Virus genome (UHGV): UHGV-0074613
Source: a virus
Reading direction: 5' to 3' (one strand)
DNA length: 23,589 nt
Shown here: positions 7,132 to 13,687 of the stretch, one piece after another
How the letters are laid out: every line of letters starts with the position of its first letter
Numbering within the stretch: the first letter of the stretch is position 1
Position numbers and translations under genes: made by a program
The notes under the pieces: generated by a model
Told to the model about the DNA's origin: nothing
Database searches by the model: none
What the model saw: the letters and a program-made list of their open reading frames with translations, nothing else

Positions 7132-7602
7132 ATGGTAGAGCAGACCCTGAAAGAAGTAGTGAAAGCGATGTGCAAAGCATATCCCGGTGGCCGCGAGGCT
7201 ATGGCTGGTGCATTGGGCATGTCAGTAACTCAGTTCAATAACAACCTGTATGAGAAAAACGGCTGTCGTTTCTTTGAGGTAACAGAGCTGGAAGCGATGG
7301 AAGACATTTCCAACACATCGCTGGTGGCTGATTACTTTGCTAAGCGTCGTGGTGCTTTGCTGGTGGACAGGCCACTCCTGGAAGATCTGGACCGCGTTGA
7401 TTTATTCAGTCGGGCAATACGTACATCTGCGGCGCGTGGGCAGGTTGACCAAATCATTGAGCAGGCTCTGGAAGATGGGGTGATCGAGCAGCATGAAGCA
7501 GAAGAAATTATGGAACATCACCGCCGCCACCTGGCAGCACGTGAGGAAGAGATTCAGGCAATCATCACTCTTTTCGGACGTAAGAAAAGCCAAAAAAAGT
7601 GA
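7132..7602 (+). CDS. YdaT/CII-like regulatory protein
   Basis: ATG 7132 with SD AAGGA at 8-nt spacing; follows the cro-like gene as in Rac-type ydaS-ydaT pairs. Family assignment is by position and general resemblance only. Confidence 0.5.
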   Translation: MVEQTLKEVVKAMCKAYPGGREAMAGALGMSVTQFNNNLYEKNGCRFFEVTELEAMEDISNTSLVADYFAKRRGALLVDRPLLEDLDRVDLFSRAIRTSAARGQVDQIIEQALEDGVIEQHEAEEIMEHHRRHLAAREEEIQAIITLFGRKKSQKK

Positions 7603-7663
7603 CGCCAGCGAGTGTGCAGCTCCTGGCGTCGTGGCGTGTCGTTATCAAGTGGAGAACTAACGC

Positions 7664-8002
7664 ATGAACAGTGTAAACCGATTCAGACCAGTTAAGCAAT
7701 TCAGATGCCCACCGCTGGTGGGGCGTGATGCCCCGTTCGGCTATGTGGGAATAGTACGTACAGCGAACGGAAGCCACAACTACCAGTGTGGTTCAGAGAT
7801 GGTAGAGGCGTTTACTCAGATGAATGAGAAGGGGCGTGAGGAGTGGCTGAAGTTGACCGGCGATTCAGAGACCACCGTGGAATCGAAGTCAGGGTTATCC
7901 GTTGGGAGCCCGAGACCGGACGCGTTATATACCTTCGCCAAGGGTACGATCATGAGTGCTTCAGCCCTCTTGAACAATTCCAGCGTAAGTTTACAGAGTT
8001 AA
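7664..8002 (+). CDS. Hypothetical protein (112 aa)
   Basis: ORF with SD GGAGAA 6 nt upstream of ATG; sits between the CII-like and O-like genes. Confidence 0.45.
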   Translation: MNSVNRFRPVKQFRCPPLVGRDAPFGYVGIVRTANGSHNYQCGSEMVEAFTQMNEKGREEWLKLTGDSETTVESKSGLSVGSPRPDALYTFAKGTIMSASALLNNSSVSLQS

Positions 8003-8011
8003 AGGACGACC

Positions 8012-8896
8012 ATGAGCACTAAATTAACCGGTTACGTTTGGGACGCTTGCGCTTCTTCAGGCATGAAGTTGTCCAGCGTTGCCATCATGGCGCGTCTGGC
8101 AGACTTCAGCAGCGATGAGGGAGTTAGCTGGCCTTCAATTGGCACTATTGCTCGTCAGATTGGCGCTGGTGAAAGCACTGTACGCACAGCGATATCCCAA
8201 CTGGAGAAGGATGGCTGGCTTACTCGTAAACAGCGCCGCAATGGCAACCGTAACGCCTCAAACGTGTATCAACTGAATGTCGCGAAGCTTCGTGATGCAG
8301 CTTTCTCTCACCTGTCAGATTCTGACGCATCAAAATCTGATGCATCAAAATCCGACCCGTCAAAATTTGAGGCATCAAAAAACGACGATAACGGCACTTT
8401 TGACCCGTCAGAATCTGGTGGGGATCCGTCAGTAAAATCAAAACCAGAACCATCAGTTAAAAATAAAACCCCTTGTCCGGTTCCTTCGAAACCTGACGAC
8501 GTCGATTCTGATCCTGCTGTTCAGGTTCTTGACCATTTCAACCAGGTCACCGGGTCTGAATACGGTCGTGGTGGTCGTAACAAAACCACGCTGGGATACA
8601 TCCGTGGTCGTCTCGCTGAAGATTACACCGCTGATGATTTGAAACTGGTGGTGGATTATCTCAACGCCAAGTGGGCAGACGATTCGAAGATGAGTGACTA
8701 CCTGCGCCCTAAAACGCTTTTCGGCGCGGAAAATTGCACGGAGTACTTCGAGAAGGCCAAGAAGTGGCGAAAGAGCGGTAGCCCGAAATGTGTCAACGGG
8801 CGCTGGGTCAAAGAGTCTGATCCGGTCCCTGTTACTCGTGAATCCTACGATAACGTTGATTACGCACTGCCTGAGAACGCGGGGTTCCGCCAATGA
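8012..8896 (+). CDS. Replication initiation protein (O-like: N-terminal wHTH + conserved phage C-terminal domain)
   Basis: N-terminus ...SWPSIGTIARQIGAGESTVRTAISQLEKDGWL is a winged-HTH typical of phage initiators; C-terminus ...QVTGSEYGRGGRNKTTLGYIRGRLAEDYTADDLKLVVDY matches the conserved replication-protein C-terminal domain; internal iterons. Confidence 0.75.
   Translation: MSTKLTGYVWDACASSGMKLSSVAIMARLADFSSDEGVSWPSIGTIARQIGAGESTVRTAISQLEKDGWLTRKQRRNGNRNASNVYQLNVAKLRDAAFSHLSDSDASKSDASKSDPSKFEASKNDDNGTFDPSESGGDPSVKSKPEPSVKNKTPCPVPSKPDDVDSDPAVQVLDHFNQVTGSEYGRGGRNKTTLGYIRGRLAEDYTADDLKLVVDYLNAKWADDSKMSDYLRPKTLFGAENCTEYFEKAKKWRKSGSPKCVNGRWVKESDPVPVTRESYDNVDYALPENAGFRQ
8308..8382 (+). repeat. 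Iteron array (putative replication origin) inside the O-like gene
   Basis: Four 15-bp direct repeats (TGACGCATCAAAATC, TGATGCATCAAAATC, CGACCCGTCAAAATT, TGAGGCATCAAAAAA) plus one degenerate copy; followed by a fairly A-rich stretch (8440-8470). Confidence 0.6.
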
Positions 8897-9366
8897 GCAT
8901 GCTGAAAGAAGTTCAGGCCTTCCTTGCCAAAAATCCTGGGTCCGGAAGTGCGGAGATTGTGGAGGCGTTCAGCCAGTACAGCGCACGAAGTATTCAACGC
9001 ACAGTGTGCCGACTTTATGACCTGAACCGTGCTACTCGTGAAACCGTTGGTAACCGCTTTGTCTACTCAGCTGATATGCCACTGGATATGGCGAAAGGGT
9101 GCGCTTCTCCTGCAAAAGTCGTTGTTCAACAAATGCCACGACAGGTAGTTACTCATCTCATCGAAAAAGCCGATCACCTTATGAGTCGTGGACTTTATCG
9201 CCGCGCTGCCACGATGTTCATGGAAGCGTTCGAAGGGGCTGTTCATACCGAAGAGCGAGACTATTGCTTACGCCAGCGTCAGCGCTGCCTAAAGAAATGC
9301 GCAGTGGACAAAAAGCGGCAGGAGGAATGGTGTCTTGCCGGGAAGTTTTGTGGAGGTGACATGTGA
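8893..9366 (+). CDS. Hypothetical regulator, possibly PerC-like C-terminal domain
   Basis: 157-aa ORF coupled to the O-like stop (ATGA). C-terminal RGLYRRAATMF...RQRQRCLKK resembles the G-(L/Y)-WRRAA core of PerC/Pch regulators (recollection, not searched). Confidence 0.4.
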   Translation: MSMLKEVQAFLAKNPGSGSAEIVEAFSQYSARSIQRTVCRLYDLNRATRETVGNRFVYSADMPLDMAKGCASPAKVVVQQMPRQVVTHLIEKADHLMSRGLYRRAATMFMEAFEGAVHTEERDYCLRQRQRCLKKCAVDKKRQEEWCLAGKFCGGDM

Positions 9367-10031
9367 ACTACGAGCTGATTTACGCCGATCCTCCATGGTC
9401 ATACGACAACACAGCCAGCAACGGTGCAGCAGAAAACCATTATGGAACGATGAAGCTCATCGACATTAAACGCCTTCCAGTGTGGGAGCTTTCTGCTGAA
9501 AACGCCGTGTTGGCCATGTGGTACACCGGGACGCATACCCGCGAGGCTATAGAGCTGGCGGAAGCATGGGGATTCAAGGTCCGCACGATGAAGGGCTTCA
9601 CCTGGGTCAAGTTCAATCCGCTCGCGGAGAAGCACATCAACAAAGCGCTGCAGGCTGGGGGTGTGGAGGACTTTTACGATTTCCTCGACCTGTTGAACGT
9701 CCAGACCAGGATGAACGGCGGCAACCACACCCGAGCCAATACAGAAGACCTGTTGATCGCCACAAAAGGGAAGGGGTTAGAGCGCCTGAACGCCGGTATT
9801 AAGCAGGTTGTTTACAGCCCACTCGGTGTACACAGCCAAAAGCCCTGGGAAGTTCGCCACCGCTTAGAGCTACTTTACGGTGATGTATCGCGCATTGAAT
9901 TATTCAGCCGCAACGGTTCGCCAGGCTGGGACCACTGGGGCAATGAAGCGGAAAACCCTTCGGTGTTTATGGCTCCTGGTTATGTCTGTCCGGTTGATAT
10001 GCAGGATGAGGTGACCAATGCCGGGTATTGA
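9363..10031 (+). CDS. MT-A70-family N6-adenine DNA methyltransferase
   Basis: N-terminal YADPPWSY (DPPW motif); 222 aa; GTG start overlapping the upstream stop with SD GGAGG. Confidence 0.8.
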   Translation: MNYELIYADPPWSYDNTASNGAAENHYGTMKLIDIKRLPVWELSAENAVLAMWYTGTHTREAIELAEAWGFKVRTMKGFTWVKFNPLAEKHINKALQAGGVEDFYDFLDLLNVQTRMNGGNHTRANTEDLLIATKGKGLERLNAGIKQVVYSPLGVHSQKPWEVRHRLELLYGDVSRIELFSRNGSPGWDHWGNEAENPSVFMAPGYVCPVDMQDEVTNAGY

Positions 10032-10236
10032 AGAGCGTAACCTCCTGAAGAACATTGCCCGGAAAGTGAATGATGAAATCAGAGCAGAGCGGAAAGCCAG
10101 GCCCAATGAAAGCCCTGACTCGATATCGAGAAGGATCATGAACCGAGAAATGCCGATGGTTAAGTTGATGGGTTTTATGCCGTCCCATCTCTACTTCGAG
10201 ATCGGTGTGCTCAATGGCAAATGTAAGGAGCGGTGA
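10018..10236 (+). CDS. Hypothetical small protein (72 aa)
   Basis: SD GAGGTGA directly upstream of ATG; basic and charged. Confidence 0.45.
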   Translation: MPGIEERNLLKNIARKVNDEIRAERKARPNESPDSISRRIMNREMPMVKLMGFMPSHLYFEIGVLNGKCKER

Positions 10237-10237
10237 G

Positions 10238-10558
10238 ATGGAACAGTTAACAATGCGTCAGGAAGAAGTACTTGGGATTATCGAAAACTACCAGCAGCGT
10301 ATGGGGTTTCCGCCAACCGTCTACGAGCTGGCAAATCTGATGGGCTGCACATCCGGCAATGCGGCGGCGATTCAAATCAAGGCTCTGGAGAAGAAGGGCT
10401 ATATCTCTGTCGCTCGCGGCGCAGCCAGGGGGATCACCATTCTGCGGGAGAGTCAGGAGCCTGATGCTGTAAGCATCGTTCGGGCGCTGCTGGTGGGCGA
10501 TGCTGACGCGCGTCAGAAAGCAGTCTCCTGGCTGGAATCAAAAGGGGTAACGATTTGA
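10238..10558 (+). CDS. LexA DNA-binding-domain-only protein (no S24 peptidase domain)
   Basis: From ATG 10238 (SD AAGGAG, 7-nt spacing): MEQLTMRQEEVLGII...GFPPTVYELANLMGCTSGNAAAIQIKALEKKGYISVARGAARGITIL aligns along its length with the LexA N-terminal domain (LTARQQEVFDLI...[47 protein letters not shown]). Ends about 30 aa later with no Ser/Lys protease domain. Confidence 0.75.
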   Translation: MEQLTMRQEEVLGIIENYQQRMGFPPTVYELANLMGCTSGNAAAIQIKALEKKGYISVARGAARGITILRESQEPDAVSIVRALLVGDADARQKAVSWLESKGVTI

Positions 10559-12841: not shown

Positions 12842-13687
12842 GTGGAGAACGCTATGAACCTTGAAGCCCTACCAAAATTTTATTCACCAAAATCGCCAAA
12901 GTTGAGTGATGACGCGCCAGCAACCAGCAATGATGCATTGTCTGTGACTGATGTGATGGCTGCACAGGGGATGACACAGAACCGCGCATCATTTGGCTTT
13001 TCTGCGTTCCTGGGGAAGTTGGGGATCAGCATCACTGAAAAAGAAAAGGCTATCGCGCTTCTTTCTAATTATGCCCTTGCTCGCTGCGACAGAGTCCCGG
13101 CGCTTCGAAAATTGAGCGCTGAAATCAAGCCAAAAGTAATTCGCATTCTCGCTGTTTATGCATTCGAGGATTATTCTCGAAGTGCAAGCACTACACGAAT
13201 CTGTGACTGCTGTAATGGTGAAGGGTTTATTGATGCCGAAGTCTTCAGCATGAAAACCCACACACCAGGCAAGAATAAAGAATTTGTCAAAATGTCACTG
13301 CATATGGGCGTAAAAGATATCAAGCCATCAGCATATGAGGTGCGCAGACAAGTGAGAGAAATAAACCGCGTTCTGTGCCATCAGTGCAAAGGGAAGAAAG
13401 TAGTTAGTTCCTCATGCAACGATTGCCATGGTCGCGGTAAGGCCGTAAACCGCGAATTAACTGCAAAGCAGGGAGTACCGGTATTCACCGACTGTAAACG
13501 ATGCGGTGGTAATGGCTATGCAAGAATGCCGTCAACGGAAGCACTGGAAGCAATACGCCTTGTTACTGATGCCATTTCTCTCGATACATGGAAAAAGTCT
13601 GTGAAGAAGTTCTATGACGATCTCATTGAAAAGTTCGAAGTAGAAGAGGCATGGGCTGAAGAGCAATTGCGGCGGGTAACAAAATAA
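12842..13687 (+). CDS. Late-gene antiterminator Q (QuuQ-like)
   Basis: Last gene before the tandem terminators and lysis cassette; four CxxCxGxG-type Cys pairs (CDCCNGEG, CHQCKGKK, CNDCHGRG, CKRCGGNG). Alternative start ATG 12854. Confidence 0.65.
   Translation: MENAMNLEALPKFYSPKSPKLSDDAPATSNDALSVTDVMAAQGMTQNRASFGFSAFLGKLGISITEKEKAIALLSNYALARCDRVPALRKLSAEIKPKVIRILAVYAFEDYSRSASTTRICDCCNGEGFIDAEVFSMKTHTPGKNKEFVKMSLHMGVKDIKPSAYEVRRQVREINRVLCHQCKGKKVVSSSCNDCHGRGKAVNRELTAKQGVPVFTDCKRCGGNGYARMPSTEALEAIRLVTDAISLDTWKKSVKKFYDDLIEKFEVEEAWAEEQLRRVTK

What the first reader, a model, noticed from the sequence alone, without database searches (positions are those of the whole stretch)
8308..8470. Iteron-type origin embedded in the replication initiator gene
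Four and a half 15-bp direct repeats centred on GCATCAAAA occupy the linker between the N-terminal wHTH and the C-terminal domain of the O-like protein (encoding SDASKSDASKSDPSKFEASK), followed by a fairly A-rich stretch. This mirrors lambda ori inside O. No P/DnaC-like helicase loader follows, so the initiator may recruit host helicase directly.
Basis: partly seen in the sequence, partly recalled or inferred. Interest (0 to 1): 0.45.

Follow-up and report, generated by a model that had tools for sequence, protein, structure and literature searches.

The report
Phage origin inside its initiator gene
The repeats are real and, judged from 76 related prophages, are kept by selection on the DNA itself, so this is very probably a lambda-style replication origin inside the phage's own initiator gene, in a group of lambda-like phages that carry no helicase loader and whose replication is not yet understood.

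Summary
Four 15-bp tandem units lie at 8321-8380, a degenerate unit at 8306-8320 and a separated sixth at 8399-8413. All sit in the codons for a predicted disordered linker of a 294-aa initiator (8012-8896): winged-helix N-terminal domain, Phg_2220_C/DnaD-like C-terminal domain.

In 76 homologous genes from Enterobacterales, synonymous sites are nearly saturated in the N-terminal domain but almost frozen through the linker (normalised codon entropy 0.79 vs 0.26, p=5e-15). No alternative reading frame stays open.

The unit is a dyad, TCTGA-N4-TCARA. The half-sites are conserved even at third codon positions. The N4 and the encoded amino acids vary, and copy number runs from 2 to 9.

Downstream lie an invariant block (8399-8456), the least stable A-rich 40-mer of the gene (8429-8468) and a palindrome kept by compensatory changes (8475-8497). 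Lambda ori has the same order of parts.

A different N-terminal domain family (mEp390 type) carries different repeats at the same place.

No helicase or loader is recognisable from integrase to Q. The relative LLS, a viable phage, has none in its whole genome, as published in 2025. Origin activity and the way the helicase is loaded remain untested.

Verdict: a new member of a known kind, of moderate interest.

The parts
8012..8896 (+). Replication initiator gene (294 aa), which holds the origin
   Evidence: ORF list and translation. Pfam: HTH_36 35.1 bits and Phg_2220_C 63.3 bits. PHROGs: 'replication initiation O-like', 'primosomal protein' and 'replication initiation protein'. More than 2000 homologues, named only 'conserved phage C-terminal domain-containing protein'.
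8012..8305 (+). Codons for the N-terminal winged-helix DNA-binding domain (aa 1-98), the presumed reader of the iterons
   Evidence: AlphaFold model: helices and wing across aa 3-104. Foldseek matches are MarR-type dimeric winged-helix proteins. The recognition helix STVRTAI and the wing RRxGNRNASN are nearly invariant in 76 loci. Synonymous sites here are near saturation.
8306..8320 (+). Degenerate leading unit TCTCACCTGTCAGAT; the right half-site TCAGA is intact
   Evidence: In register with the array. Its codons TCT, CTG, TCA and GAT show no synonymous variation across the loci that carry them.
8321..8380 (+). Four head-to-tail 15-bp iterons, TCTGA-YNNN-TCAAA-A, each an imperfect inverted repeat
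   Evidence: TRF score 78, with 0 of 200 shuffles reaching it. Logo from 386 units of 77 loci: positions 1-5 and 10-15 carry 1.1-2.0 bits, including third codon positions; positions 6-9 carry 0.3-0.9 bits. Ser codons are TCT or TCA and never AGY.
8381..8398 (+). Variable spacer (AAACGACGATAACGGCAC)
   Evidence: It differs freely among loci although both flanks are invariant. This argues against a recent sweep as the cause of the conservation.
8399..8418 (+). Sixth iteron-like unit TTTGACCCGTCAGAA plus a trailing half-site TCTGG
   Evidence: Matches the iteron pattern. Nearly invariant in 72 loci. This block is itself duplicated two to three times in the Proteus loci L074, L075 and L077.
8399..8456 (+). 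Block conserved at nucleotide level, TTTGACCCGTCAGAATCTGGnGGGGATCCGTCAGTAAAwTCAAA...GAWCCATCAG, with an invariant GATC at 8423
   Evidence: Column identity is mostly 0.9-1.0, third codon positions included, across 72 loci from Escherichia to Proteus, Providencia and Yersinia. Codon entropy is about 0. GATC count.
8429..8468 (+). A-rich, low-stability stretch; the presumed unwinding element
   Evidence: 72.5% A+T, dG -45.1 kcal/mol. It is the least stable 40-mer of the gene and lies at the 99.6th percentile of the window. GC falls to 0.40-0.42 with AT skew up to +0.37.
8475..8497 (+). Palindrome GTCCGGTTCC-TTC-GAAACCTGAC at the junction with the C-terminal domain
   Evidence: Across 61 distinct sequences, 7.74 of 10 arm positions are complementary, against at most 4.05 when the partner arm is slid by 1-3 bases. 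Different classes keep the symmetry with different bases: GGTTGC/GCAACC, GCCTGC/GCAGAC, AACCGC/GCGGCA. Lambda has a palindrome at the same relative place.
8504..8773 (+). Codons for the helical C-terminal domain (aa 165-254; Phg_2220_C, DnaD-like fold), the presumed contact with the replication machinery
6767..6796 (+). pR-like promoter upstream of the cro-like gene, cII and the initiator; it would drive transcription through the origin
   Evidence: The only sigma-70-like site in 6700-9500, 10 of 12 matches. It lies between the cI-like repressor gene (6054-6773, minus strand) and the cro-like gene. Its role in activating the origin is inferred from lambda.

Best explanation
Nucleotides 8306-8497 are the phage's origin of replication, built like lambda ori and embedded in the linker-coding part of its own initiator gene.

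Shown:
- Five contiguous 15-bp dyad-symmetric units plus one separated unit.
- An invariant block, an A-rich low-stability 40-mer and a palindrome, in that order.
- All of these are under purifying selection at the DNA level, while the peptide they encode is a disordered, variable linker.

Inferred:
- The initiator is made from rightward early transcripts.
- Dimers of its N-terminal winged-helix domain bind the half-sites TCTGA and TCARA, whose centres are 9 bp apart.
- Five or six dimers packed every 15 bp form an O-some-like complex.
- Together with supercoiling and transcription through the site, this complex melts the adjacent A-rich stretch.
- The DnaD-like C-terminal domain, tethered by the roughly 60-aa linker, brings in the host helicase DnaB.

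The phage has no recognisable loader, helicase or primase. Loading must therefore use host factors, most simply the DnaB-DnaC complex. Host primase and polymerase III would do the rest.
For: 1. The repeats are not chance.

2. Selection acts on the DNA.
- In 76 homologous genes the normalised codon entropy is 0.79 for codons 2-97 and 0.26 for codons 98-141 (Mann-Whitney p=5e-15).
- At identical amino acids, the fraction of identical codons between the window and the other loci is 0.44 in the N-terminal domain and 0.85 in the linker. It is higher in the linker in 75 of 75 loci.
- Serine in the units is TCT (270 of 292) or TCA (340 of 373) and never AGC or AGT, although AGC is the commonest serine codon elsewhere in the same genes.
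- First-codon substitutions Ser to Phe, Pro, Thr or Tyr keep the bases YT-GA.
- The N4 positions and the 18-bp spacer vary freely.

3. No other reading frame is open across the loci: 0 of 72 in four frames and 27 of 72 in the fifth. There is no Rfam match and no promoter-like site in the region.

4. Copy number ranges from 2 to 9 in whole units. Lambda and Stx phages likewise differ, with 4 and 6 iterons (PMC7466680).

5. Specificity is modular.
- The same N-terminal domain and repeats are joined to several different C-terminal domains.
- The mEp390-type N-terminal domain carries different repeats, CGCGAAGTCGCGRAAY in 4-6 copies, at the same position.

6. The order of parts is that of lambda: iterons, A-rich stretch, palindrome.

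7. The motif occurs only in this gene, both in the window and in the complete LLS genome.

8. The protein has a MarR-like winged-helix domain, a disordered linker and a DnaD-like C-terminal domain. PHROGs names it a replication initiator.

9. No loader is present here or in the viable relative LLS (PMC12315714).
Against: - Nothing here shows binding, unwinding or origin activity. All support is comparative or by analogy.
- The A-rich stretch is only 72.5% A+T.
- A 15-bp head-to-tail spacing differs from lambda, where 18-19-bp iterons start 20-24 bp apart. No characterised origin with this geometry was found for comparison.
- The protein is not detectably homologous to lambda O, so the analogy rests on architecture.
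- As RNA the region also folds unusually well (z -4.66), so an mRNA-level role is not excluded by energy alone.
- The 76 loci are related sequences, not independent samples.
- Several early genes have no known function and could hide an unrecognised loader.
Confidence: 0.8

Rival explanations
1. The repeats are only a low-complexity protein linker (SDxSK repeats) made by replication slippage. They have no function as DNA.
For: The region encodes a predicted disordered linker. Copy number varies in whole 5-codon steps, as slippage would give.
Against: - Third codon positions are more conserved than the amino acids.
- Chemically unlike residues (Ser, Phe, Pro, Thr, Tyr) replace one another while bases 2-5 stay fixed.
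- Two of the six serine codons are used almost exclusively, each at its own place.
- The non-repeated block 8399-8456 is equally frozen, while synonymous sites of the well-conserved N-terminal domain are near saturation.
Confidence: 0.03
2. The DNA is under selection, but for a function other than origin activity. Candidates are a conserved junction that promotes homologous exchange of initiator domains between phages, an mRNA structure that controls translation of the initiator, or binding sites through which the initiator represses its own gene.
For: Mosaic breakpoints fall exactly here. BLAST matches to other phages end at window 8463 or 8497-8499, and the same N-terminal half is joined to several C-terminal domains. 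The RNA folds with z -4.66. Initiators of iteron plasmids commonly repress their own genes (general knowledge).
Against: - Exchange at a conserved block follows from its conservation and does not explain dyad-symmetric iterated units.
- It also does not explain the switch to a different repeat type with a different N-terminal domain.
- The RNA stability comes from the dyad units themselves, and copy number changes would alter any fixed fold.
- There is no Rfam match and no promoter-like site.
- The match in order of parts to lambda ori is left unexplained.
- Autoregulation could coexist with origin function.
Confidence: 0.1
3. It is the origin, but the initiator does not recruit the helicase by itself. 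Loading depends on a loader supplied in trans. Candidates are host DnaC, the PriA-PriB-DnaT restart primosome acting on recombination intermediates, a P or DnaC-like protein of a co-resident prophage, or an unrecognised phage protein.
For: - E. coli DnaB is normally loaded by DnaC (general knowledge).
- Some relatives with the same N-terminal domain and repeats do carry a loader: lambda P after a Phg_2220_C initiator in L049, and DnaC-like plus DnaB genes in Proteus L074, L075 and L077.
- KpF5 has a true lambda-O-type C-terminal domain (38% identity, E 2e-26) yet no P gene.
- The window has 17 Chi sites, 16 on one strand, and no recognisable recombination genes. This is the LLS class, whose growth is helped by RecBCD (PMC12315714).
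- Several early genes have unknown function.
Against: Nothing speaks directly against it. It refines the last step of the main explanation rather than replacing it. About 65 of 70 related loci show no helicase or loader in the two genes after the initiator. A dedicated phage loader is therefore dispensable for this initiator type, and dependence on a co-resident prophage would be a fragile strategy for viable phages such as LLS.
Confidence: 0.45

Closest known systems
Bacteriophage lambda ori within gene O (also Stx phages 933W and P27)
   Same: - The origin lies in the middle of the initiator gene, in the codons between the DNA-binding N-terminal domain and the C-terminal domain.
- Several iterons are each an imperfect inverted repeat.
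- They are followed by an A-rich stretch of about 40 bp with A on the top strand, then a palindrome. In lambda: iterons 39034-39118, A-rich 39120-39161, palindrome 39162-39189 (PMC7466680).
- Iteron number varies between relatives and changes the protein length.
- The origin lies downstream of pR.
- Domain exchange happens at the origin.
   Different: - The initiator does not match PF04492, and profile comparison with lambda O is not significant.
- Units are 15 bp and abut head to tail, rather than 18-19 bp starting 20-24 bp apart.
- The core is TCTGA-N4-TCARA, not ATCCCTCAAAACGAGGGA.
- The C-terminal domain is Phg_2220_C (DnaD-like) rather than the lambda P-binding domain.
- There is no P gene.
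'O-only' replication modules of lambdoid phages (phage LLS; 34 of 314 Enterobacterales lambdoid phages; Genome Res 2025, PMC12315714)
   Same: - The window's initiator belongs with LLS gp44. The N-terminal half and the repeats share about 82% DNA identity and the same Pfam architecture.
- The gene order is the same: cI, cro, cII, small ORF, initiator, methyltransferase.
- There is no loader or helicase.
- Chi density is high and no recombination module is recognisable.
   Different: The paper records the absence of a loader and states that replication of this type is not understood. It does not mention iterons or an origin ('iteron' occurs 0 times). The origin anatomy and the evidence for selection come from this analysis.
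DnaD-like 'replisome organiser' initiators of phages of Gram-positive bacteria (lactococcal and streptococcal temperate phages; SPP1 G38P), from general knowledge
   Same: A winged-helix N-terminal domain and a DnaD-like helical C-terminal domain. Repeats that act as the origin lie inside or next to the organiser gene.
Iteron plasmids with a single Rep protein (pSC101 RepA, R6K pi, RK2 TrfA), from general knowledge and PMC4980987
   Same: One element-encoded winged-helix initiator binds tandem iterons next to an A+T-rich region. It relies on the host DnaB and DnaC, with no loader of its own.
   Different: Plasmid iterons are usually 17-22 bp, spaced about 22 bp apart, and lie outside the rep gene. 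Those origins normally have DnaA boxes. No DnaA box with at most one mismatch lies between 6063 and 11312 here.

Membership tests
Lambda-type origin (iterons inside the initiator gene) | Three or more tandem direct repeats with internal dyad symmetry inside the initiator's coding sequence | tested here: met
   Five contiguous units plus one separated unit of 15 bp, TCTGA-N4-TCARA. They exceed chance.
Lambda-type origin (iterons inside the initiator gene) | The repeats lie in the codons between the DNA-binding domain and the C-terminal domain | tested here: met
   Units are at aa 99-123 and 130-134. Pfam domains cover aa 23-70 and 172-246. pLDDT is below 50 for aa 103-164.
Lambda-type origin (iterons inside the initiator gene) | An A+T-rich, easily melted region next to the iterons | tested here: met
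   8429-8468 is 72.5% A+T, the least stable 40-mer of the gene, at the 99.6th percentile of the window. It is weaker than the lambda A-rich stretch.
Lambda-type origin (iterons inside the initiator gene) | A palindrome beyond the A-rich region, as in lambda at 39162-39189 | tested here: met
   8475-8497. Symmetry is kept across 61 distinct sequences with compensatory changes.
Lambda-type origin (iterons inside the initiator gene) | Selection on the DNA sequence independent of the encoded protein | tested here: met
   Codon entropy 0.26 against 0.79, p=5e-15, with 75 of 75 loci agreeing. Third positions are conserved. No overlapping ORF.
Lambda-type origin (iterons inside the initiator gene) | Repeat sequence is matched to the type of the initiator's DNA-binding domain | tested here: met
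   The mEp390-type N-terminal domain has CGCGAAGTCGCGRAAY repeats at the same position. Within the present family the recognition helix and the half-sites are both conserved.
Lambda-type origin (iterons inside the initiator gene) | The initiator binds the repeats, and the segment supports initiator-dependent replication | not testable with these tools
   This needs EMSA or footprinting and a plasmid replication assay.
Lambda O protein family (Pfam PF04492, Phage_rep_O) | The N-terminal domain matches PF04492 | tested here: not met
   Lambda O scores 123 bits on PF04492. The window protein has no match to it at E up to 0.01.
Lambda O protein family (Pfam PF04492, Phage_rep_O) | Detectable homology to lambda O over the whole protein | tested here: inconclusive
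   hhalign gives probability 0.1% against lambda O alone and 1.1% against a 14-sequence lambda O alignment. Both profiles are shallow (Neff about 2). Brezellec et al. 2017 report HHpred matches of 'O' to HTH_36 and PF09524 (PMC5509034).
Lambda O protein family (Pfam PF04492, Phage_rep_O) | A lambda-type C-terminal (P-binding) domain and an adjacent P gene | tested here: not met
   The window has Phg_2220_C instead, followed by PerC-like and MT-A70 genes. Relatives such as KpF5 join the same N-terminal domain and repeats to a true lambda O C-terminal domain (38% identity, E 2e-26).
Phg_2220_C / TIGR02220 phage proteins (Pfam PF09524) | The C-terminal domain matches PF09524 above the gathering score | tested here: met
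   63.3 bits against a cut-off of 27, aa 172-246.
DnaD-like replisome organisers | A DnaD-type winged-helix N-terminal domain | tested here: inconclusive
   PF21984 DnaD_N scores 23.7 bits, below the cut-off of 27. The fold is a generic MarR-like winged helix.
DnaD-like replisome organisers | A C-terminal domain with the DnaD fold | tested here: inconclusive
'O-only' lambdoid replication module (LLS type) | The initiator is the only recognisable replication gene; no helicase, loader or primase | tested here: met
   Pfam and PHROGs scans of the ORFs from integrase to Q find none. The same holds for the full LLS genome and is stated in PMC12315714. Caveat: several ORFs have unknown function.

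The most novel reading that the evidence does not exclude
This is a lambda-type origin that works without any phage-encoded helicase loader. The initiator, through its DnaD-like C-terminal domain, would hand the opened origin directly to host machinery. That machinery is either the DnaB-DnaC complex or the PriA/PriB/DnaT restart primosome. Origin firing would be coupled to the Chi/RecBCD-dependent growth seen in this class of phages. The invariant GATC sites in the origin, together with the methyltransferase gene that usually follows the initiator, would add control by methylation.
Probability: 0.3. Interest if true: 0.65.

Novelty: new member of a known kind. Interest (0 to 1): 0.42.

Why it matters
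About one in nine sequenced Enterobacterales lambdoid phages (34 of 314) carry only an O-type initiator and no loader. The 2025 paper that noted this says none has been studied and that their replication is not understood.

This analysis gives that class a defined candidate origin with named parts: the iteron consensus, a conserved block with GATC, an unwinding stretch and a palindrome. All are conserved from Escherichia to Proteus. It also offers a clean experimental handle, because the units can be recoded synonymously without changing the protein.

That makes the open question directly testable: how a lambda-style origin loads DnaB without P.

Genome annotation could use the result too. These genes are at present labelled only 'conserved phage C-terminal domain-containing protein'. 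The principle itself, an origin inside the initiator gene, is textbook, so a specialist would not be surprised by it.

Tried and rejected
- Overlapping gene as the cause of the synonymous constraint. Rejected: four of the five alternative frames carry stops in all 72 loci, and the fifth is open in only 27.
- Known RNA family. Only a microRNA model at 25 bits against a gathering score of 97, which is noise.
- Internal promoter or terminator. None in the region.
- DnaA boxes near the origin. None between 6063 and 11312, and the window total is as expected by chance.
- Recent sweep as the cause of conservation. Rejected: the 18-bp spacer and the N4 positions vary while bases a few nucleotides away are invariant.
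- The upstream ORF 7664-8002 as a linked accessory replication gene. A relative was found in only 10 of 76 loci.
- Homology to lambda O by profile comparison. Not significant, with shallow profiles.
- Foldseek with the full-length model returned only the N-terminal winged-helix domain. The C-terminal domain had to be modelled separately.
- Single-linkage clustering of the C-terminal halves merged nearly all of them and gave no usable classes.
- Covariation between the recognition helix and iteron variants inside the family. Both are simply conserved.
- Weigel and Seitz 2006, 'Bacteriophage replication modules', is not in the paper library. Searches for 'initiator-solo', Phg_2220_C and TIGR02220 gave nothing on an origin for this family. 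An earlier description in a subscription journal therefore cannot be excluded.
Full report
**1. What is there**

The window carries the early region of a lambda-like prophage. In order it holds:
- integrase (50-1039, minus strand);
- a leftward operon of small genes of unknown function;
- a cI-like repressor (6054-6773, minus strand);
- a cro-like gene (6786-7109);
- a cII-like gene (7102-7602);
- a small ORF (7664-8002);
- the gene in question (8012-8896);
- a PerC-like gene (8893-9366);
- an MT-A70 methyltransferase (9363-10031);
- a gene with a LexA-type DNA-binding domain, RusA, KilA-N, DUF968 and Q (12842-13687).

ORF 8012-8896 encodes 294 aa. It has an HTH_36 winged-helix domain (aa 23-70, 35.1 bits) and Phg_2220_C (aa 172-246, 63.3 bits). 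PHROGs calls it a replication initiator.

**2.

Tandem Repeats Finder gives one array at 8321-8380: period 15, four copies, score 78. None of 200 dinucleotide shuffles of the window reached that score; the best was 63. The pattern TYTGANNNNTCARA occurs four times in the window, all within 8321-8412, against 0.14 expected.

In the reading frame the units are:
- 8306-8320, TCTCACCTGTCAGAT (degenerate);
- 8321, TCTGACGCATCAAAA;
- 8336, TCTGATGCATCAAAA;
- 8351, TCCGACCCGTCAAAA;
- 8366, TTTGAGGCATCAAAA;
- an 18-bp spacer;
- 8399-8413, TTTGACCCGTCAGAA, followed by the half-site TCTGG.

Each unit is an imperfect inverted repeat, since TCTGA is the complement of TCAGA.

The AlphaFold model has a folded N-terminal domain (aa 3-104), pLDDT below 50 for aa 103-164, and a helical C-terminal domain. 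The repeats and everything described below therefore encode a disordered linker.

**3. Selection is on the DNA**

A scan of one genome per bacterial species returned 79 loci that encode the same N-terminal domain at 66-94% identity. They run from Escherichia, Citrobacter and Enterobacter to Yersinia, Erwinia, Providencia and Proteus. All complete genes carry the array, with 2 to 9 units and a mode of 5.

The logo of 386 units has 1.1-2.0 bits at positions 1-5 (TCTGA) and 10-15 (TCAAAA). This includes the third codon positions: position 3 is T in 92% and position 12 is A in 92%. Positions 6-9 carry only 0.3-0.9 bits.

Serine is encoded by TCT at the first codon of the unit (270 of 292) and by TCA at the fourth (340 of 373). 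It is never AGC or AGT, although AGC is the commonest serine codon in the rest of the same genes. Where the first amino acid changes (Ser to Phe, Pro, Thr, Tyr), the bases YT-GA stay.

In a codon alignment of 76 genes, conserved amino acids of the N-terminal domain use nearly all their codons. From codon 98 to 141 codon variation collapses:
- normalised entropy is 0.79 against 0.26, Mann-Whitney p=5e-15;
- the identical-codon fraction against the window is 0.44 against 0.85;
- it is higher in the linker in 75 of 75 loci.

Nucleotides 8399-8456 are 90-100% identical in most columns across 72 loci. The 18-bp spacer just upstream varies freely, so the conservation is site-specific and not the trace of a recent sweep.

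No alternative frame is open across the loci. There is no Rfam family and no promoter-like site.

**4. Anatomy compared with lambda**

Downstream of the units lies the least stable 40-mer of the gene, 8429-8468. It is 72.5% A+T, has A on the top strand, and lies at the 99.6th percentile of the window.

Next comes a palindrome at 8475-8497, GTCCGGTTCC-TTC-GAAACCTGAC. Across 61 distinct sequences, 7.74 of 10 arm positions are complementary, against at most 4.05 when one arm is slid. Different lineages keep the symmetry with different bases.

In lambda the annotated iterons (39034-39118) are followed by an A-rich stretch and then the palindrome GTCAGAGAATTC-TGGC-GAATCCTCTGAC. The order of parts and their place in the gene are the same. 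In lambda O the origin occupies codons 116-168 of 299; here it occupies codons 99-162 of 294. Published work describes lambda and Stx origins in the same terms and shows that iteron number varies between relatives (PMC7466680).

**5. Modularity**

The same N-terminal domain and repeats are found joined to several C-terminal domains:
- two Phg_2220_C types (window; LLS and E. coli Nissle);
- a true lambda O C-terminal domain in KpF5, 733R5 and Shigella (38% identity to lambda O aa 179-280, E 2e-26);
- a further type in Proteus.

BLAST matches to other phages stop at 8463 or 8497-8499, which is at the origin.

Conversely, mEp390 and its relatives have a Phg_2220_C C-terminal domain but a different N-terminal domain. 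At the same position they carry a different repeat, CGCGAAGTCGCGRAAY in 4-6 copies. It is followed by an A/T-rich TATACAGA stretch and the same type of palindrome.

This pairing of DNA-binding domain with repeat type is what cognate binding sites would show. Within the present family the recognition helix (STVRTAI), the wing (RRxGNRNASN) and the half-sites are all conserved. The motif occurs nowhere else in the window or in the 42.9-kb LLS genome.

**6. The protein**

Foldseek matches of the N-terminal domain are dimeric MarR-type winged-helix proteins. E-values are 0.03-0.1, a weak but consistent set. Half-sites whose centres lie 9 bp apart, with a variable 4-bp centre, suit such a dimer; this is an inference.

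The protein does not match the lambda O model PF04492, and hhalign against lambda O is not significant. It is therefore O-like in design, not a demonstrable member of the lambda O family. Brezellec et al. report HHpred links of 'O' to HTH_36 and PF09524 (PMC5509034). I could not reproduce this with the shallow profiles available.

**7. The missing loader**

No helicase, loader or primase is recognisable anywhere from integrase to Q.

Phage LLS forms plaques on E. coli K-12. Its gp44 shares the N-terminal domain and the repeats. Its annotated genome shows no other replication gene. [quoted passage not shown] That paper does not mention iterons.

Among 70 related loci, the two genes after the initiator are mostly DNA methyltransferases and PerC-like genes. 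Only Proteus L074, L075 and L077 (DnaC-like plus DnaB) and Lonsdalea L049 (lambda P) showed a Walker A motif or were confirmed by individual scans. The family counts list one further IstB-like match that I did not place.

The helicase must therefore be loaded with host factors. Whether the initiator contacts DnaB, DnaB-DnaC or the restart primosome cannot be decided here. No DnaA box lies near the origin.

**8. Verdict**

The element is larger than reported (8306-8497).

It is a new member of a known kind. The principle is that of lambda, but several things differ:
- the initiator family;
- the 15-bp head-to-tail geometry of the units;
- the loader-less setting.

I found no prior description of an origin for this family in the searchable literature.

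Interest is moderate. The finding is not surprising in principle, but it makes an acknowledged open question experimentally approachable.

Noticed in passing
window 1090-21875 (17 sites): The Chi octamer GCTGGTGG occurs 17 times in 23.6 kb against 0.75 expected, 16 of them on the + strand. The leftward operon has no recognisable recombination genes. This matches the 'no Rec module, high Chi' class defined for phage LLS, whose growth is helped by RecBCD (PMC12315714).
   Followed up: partly
window 8423-8426 and 9363-10031; loci L007-L082: A GATC inside the conserved origin block is invariant in 76 loci. 57 of 72 loci have two GATC sites 24 bp apart in an 84-nt block, against 0.13 expected. The gene after the initiator is very often an orphan DNA methyltransferase: among the 128 ORFs scanned, Dam 31, D12 6, C5 6 and MT-A70 6. 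This hints that methylation controls the origin.
   Followed up: partly
L004:4780-4900; L125 and L126 (linker of the initiator gene): mEp390-type initiators have a different N-terminal domain. At the same linker position they carry a different repeat, CGCGAAGTCGCGRAAY in 4-6 copies. It is followed by a TATACAGA-rich stretch and the palindrome GTCCGGTTGCnnCGCAACCnGAC.
   Followed up: yes
L002:4410-5348 (Klebsiella phage KpF5); L005 (phage 733R5): These viable phages join the window-type N-terminal domain and repeats (about 7 units in 733R5) to a true lambda O C-terminal domain (38% identity, E 2e-26). That is the domain which binds P in lambda, yet no P gene follows; a methylase and RusA do.
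   Followed up: partly
L074, L075, L077 (Proteus), about 3300-5840: The block encoding FHPPESG (the sixth, separated unit) is duplicated two to three times, while only 2 canonical units remain. A 199-aa DnaC-like ATPase gene and a DnaB-type helicase gene follow the initiator, whose C-terminal domain is of a distinct type.
   Followed up: partly
L076 and L081 (E. coli chromosomes), from 3001: The first 79 aa of this initiator are fused in frame to an unrelated 455-aa ORF. From memory this resembles the e14 element's YmfN fusion; that was not checked here. It would be a decayed copy of this replication module.
   Followed up: no
window 8300-8500: As RNA the region folds far better than shuffles (-54.1 kcal/mol, z -4.66), because the dyad units pair with one another. 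An effect on translation of the initiator mRNA is possible.
   Followed up: no
window 7664-8002: A 112-aa ORF (phrog_1170, function unknown) sits between cII and the initiator and ends 10 bp before the initiator's start codon (8012). RefSeq annotates only its last 59 codons, as DUF4222. Relatives were found upstream of the initiator in only 10 of 76 loci.
   Followed up: partly
L025, L037, L050: Typical enterobacterial versions of this prophage gene appear in assemblies labelled Vagococcus, Chryseobacterium and Martelella. These are probably contaminated or mislabelled records.
   Followed up: no
window 8893-9366 and 10205-10558: A PerC-like transcriptional activator gene (phrog_1324) directly follows the initiator and overlaps its stop codon. 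A protein with a LexA-type DNA-binding domain but no peptidase domain lies further on. PerC-like genes follow the initiator in 11 of the scanned downstream ORFs.
   Followed up: no
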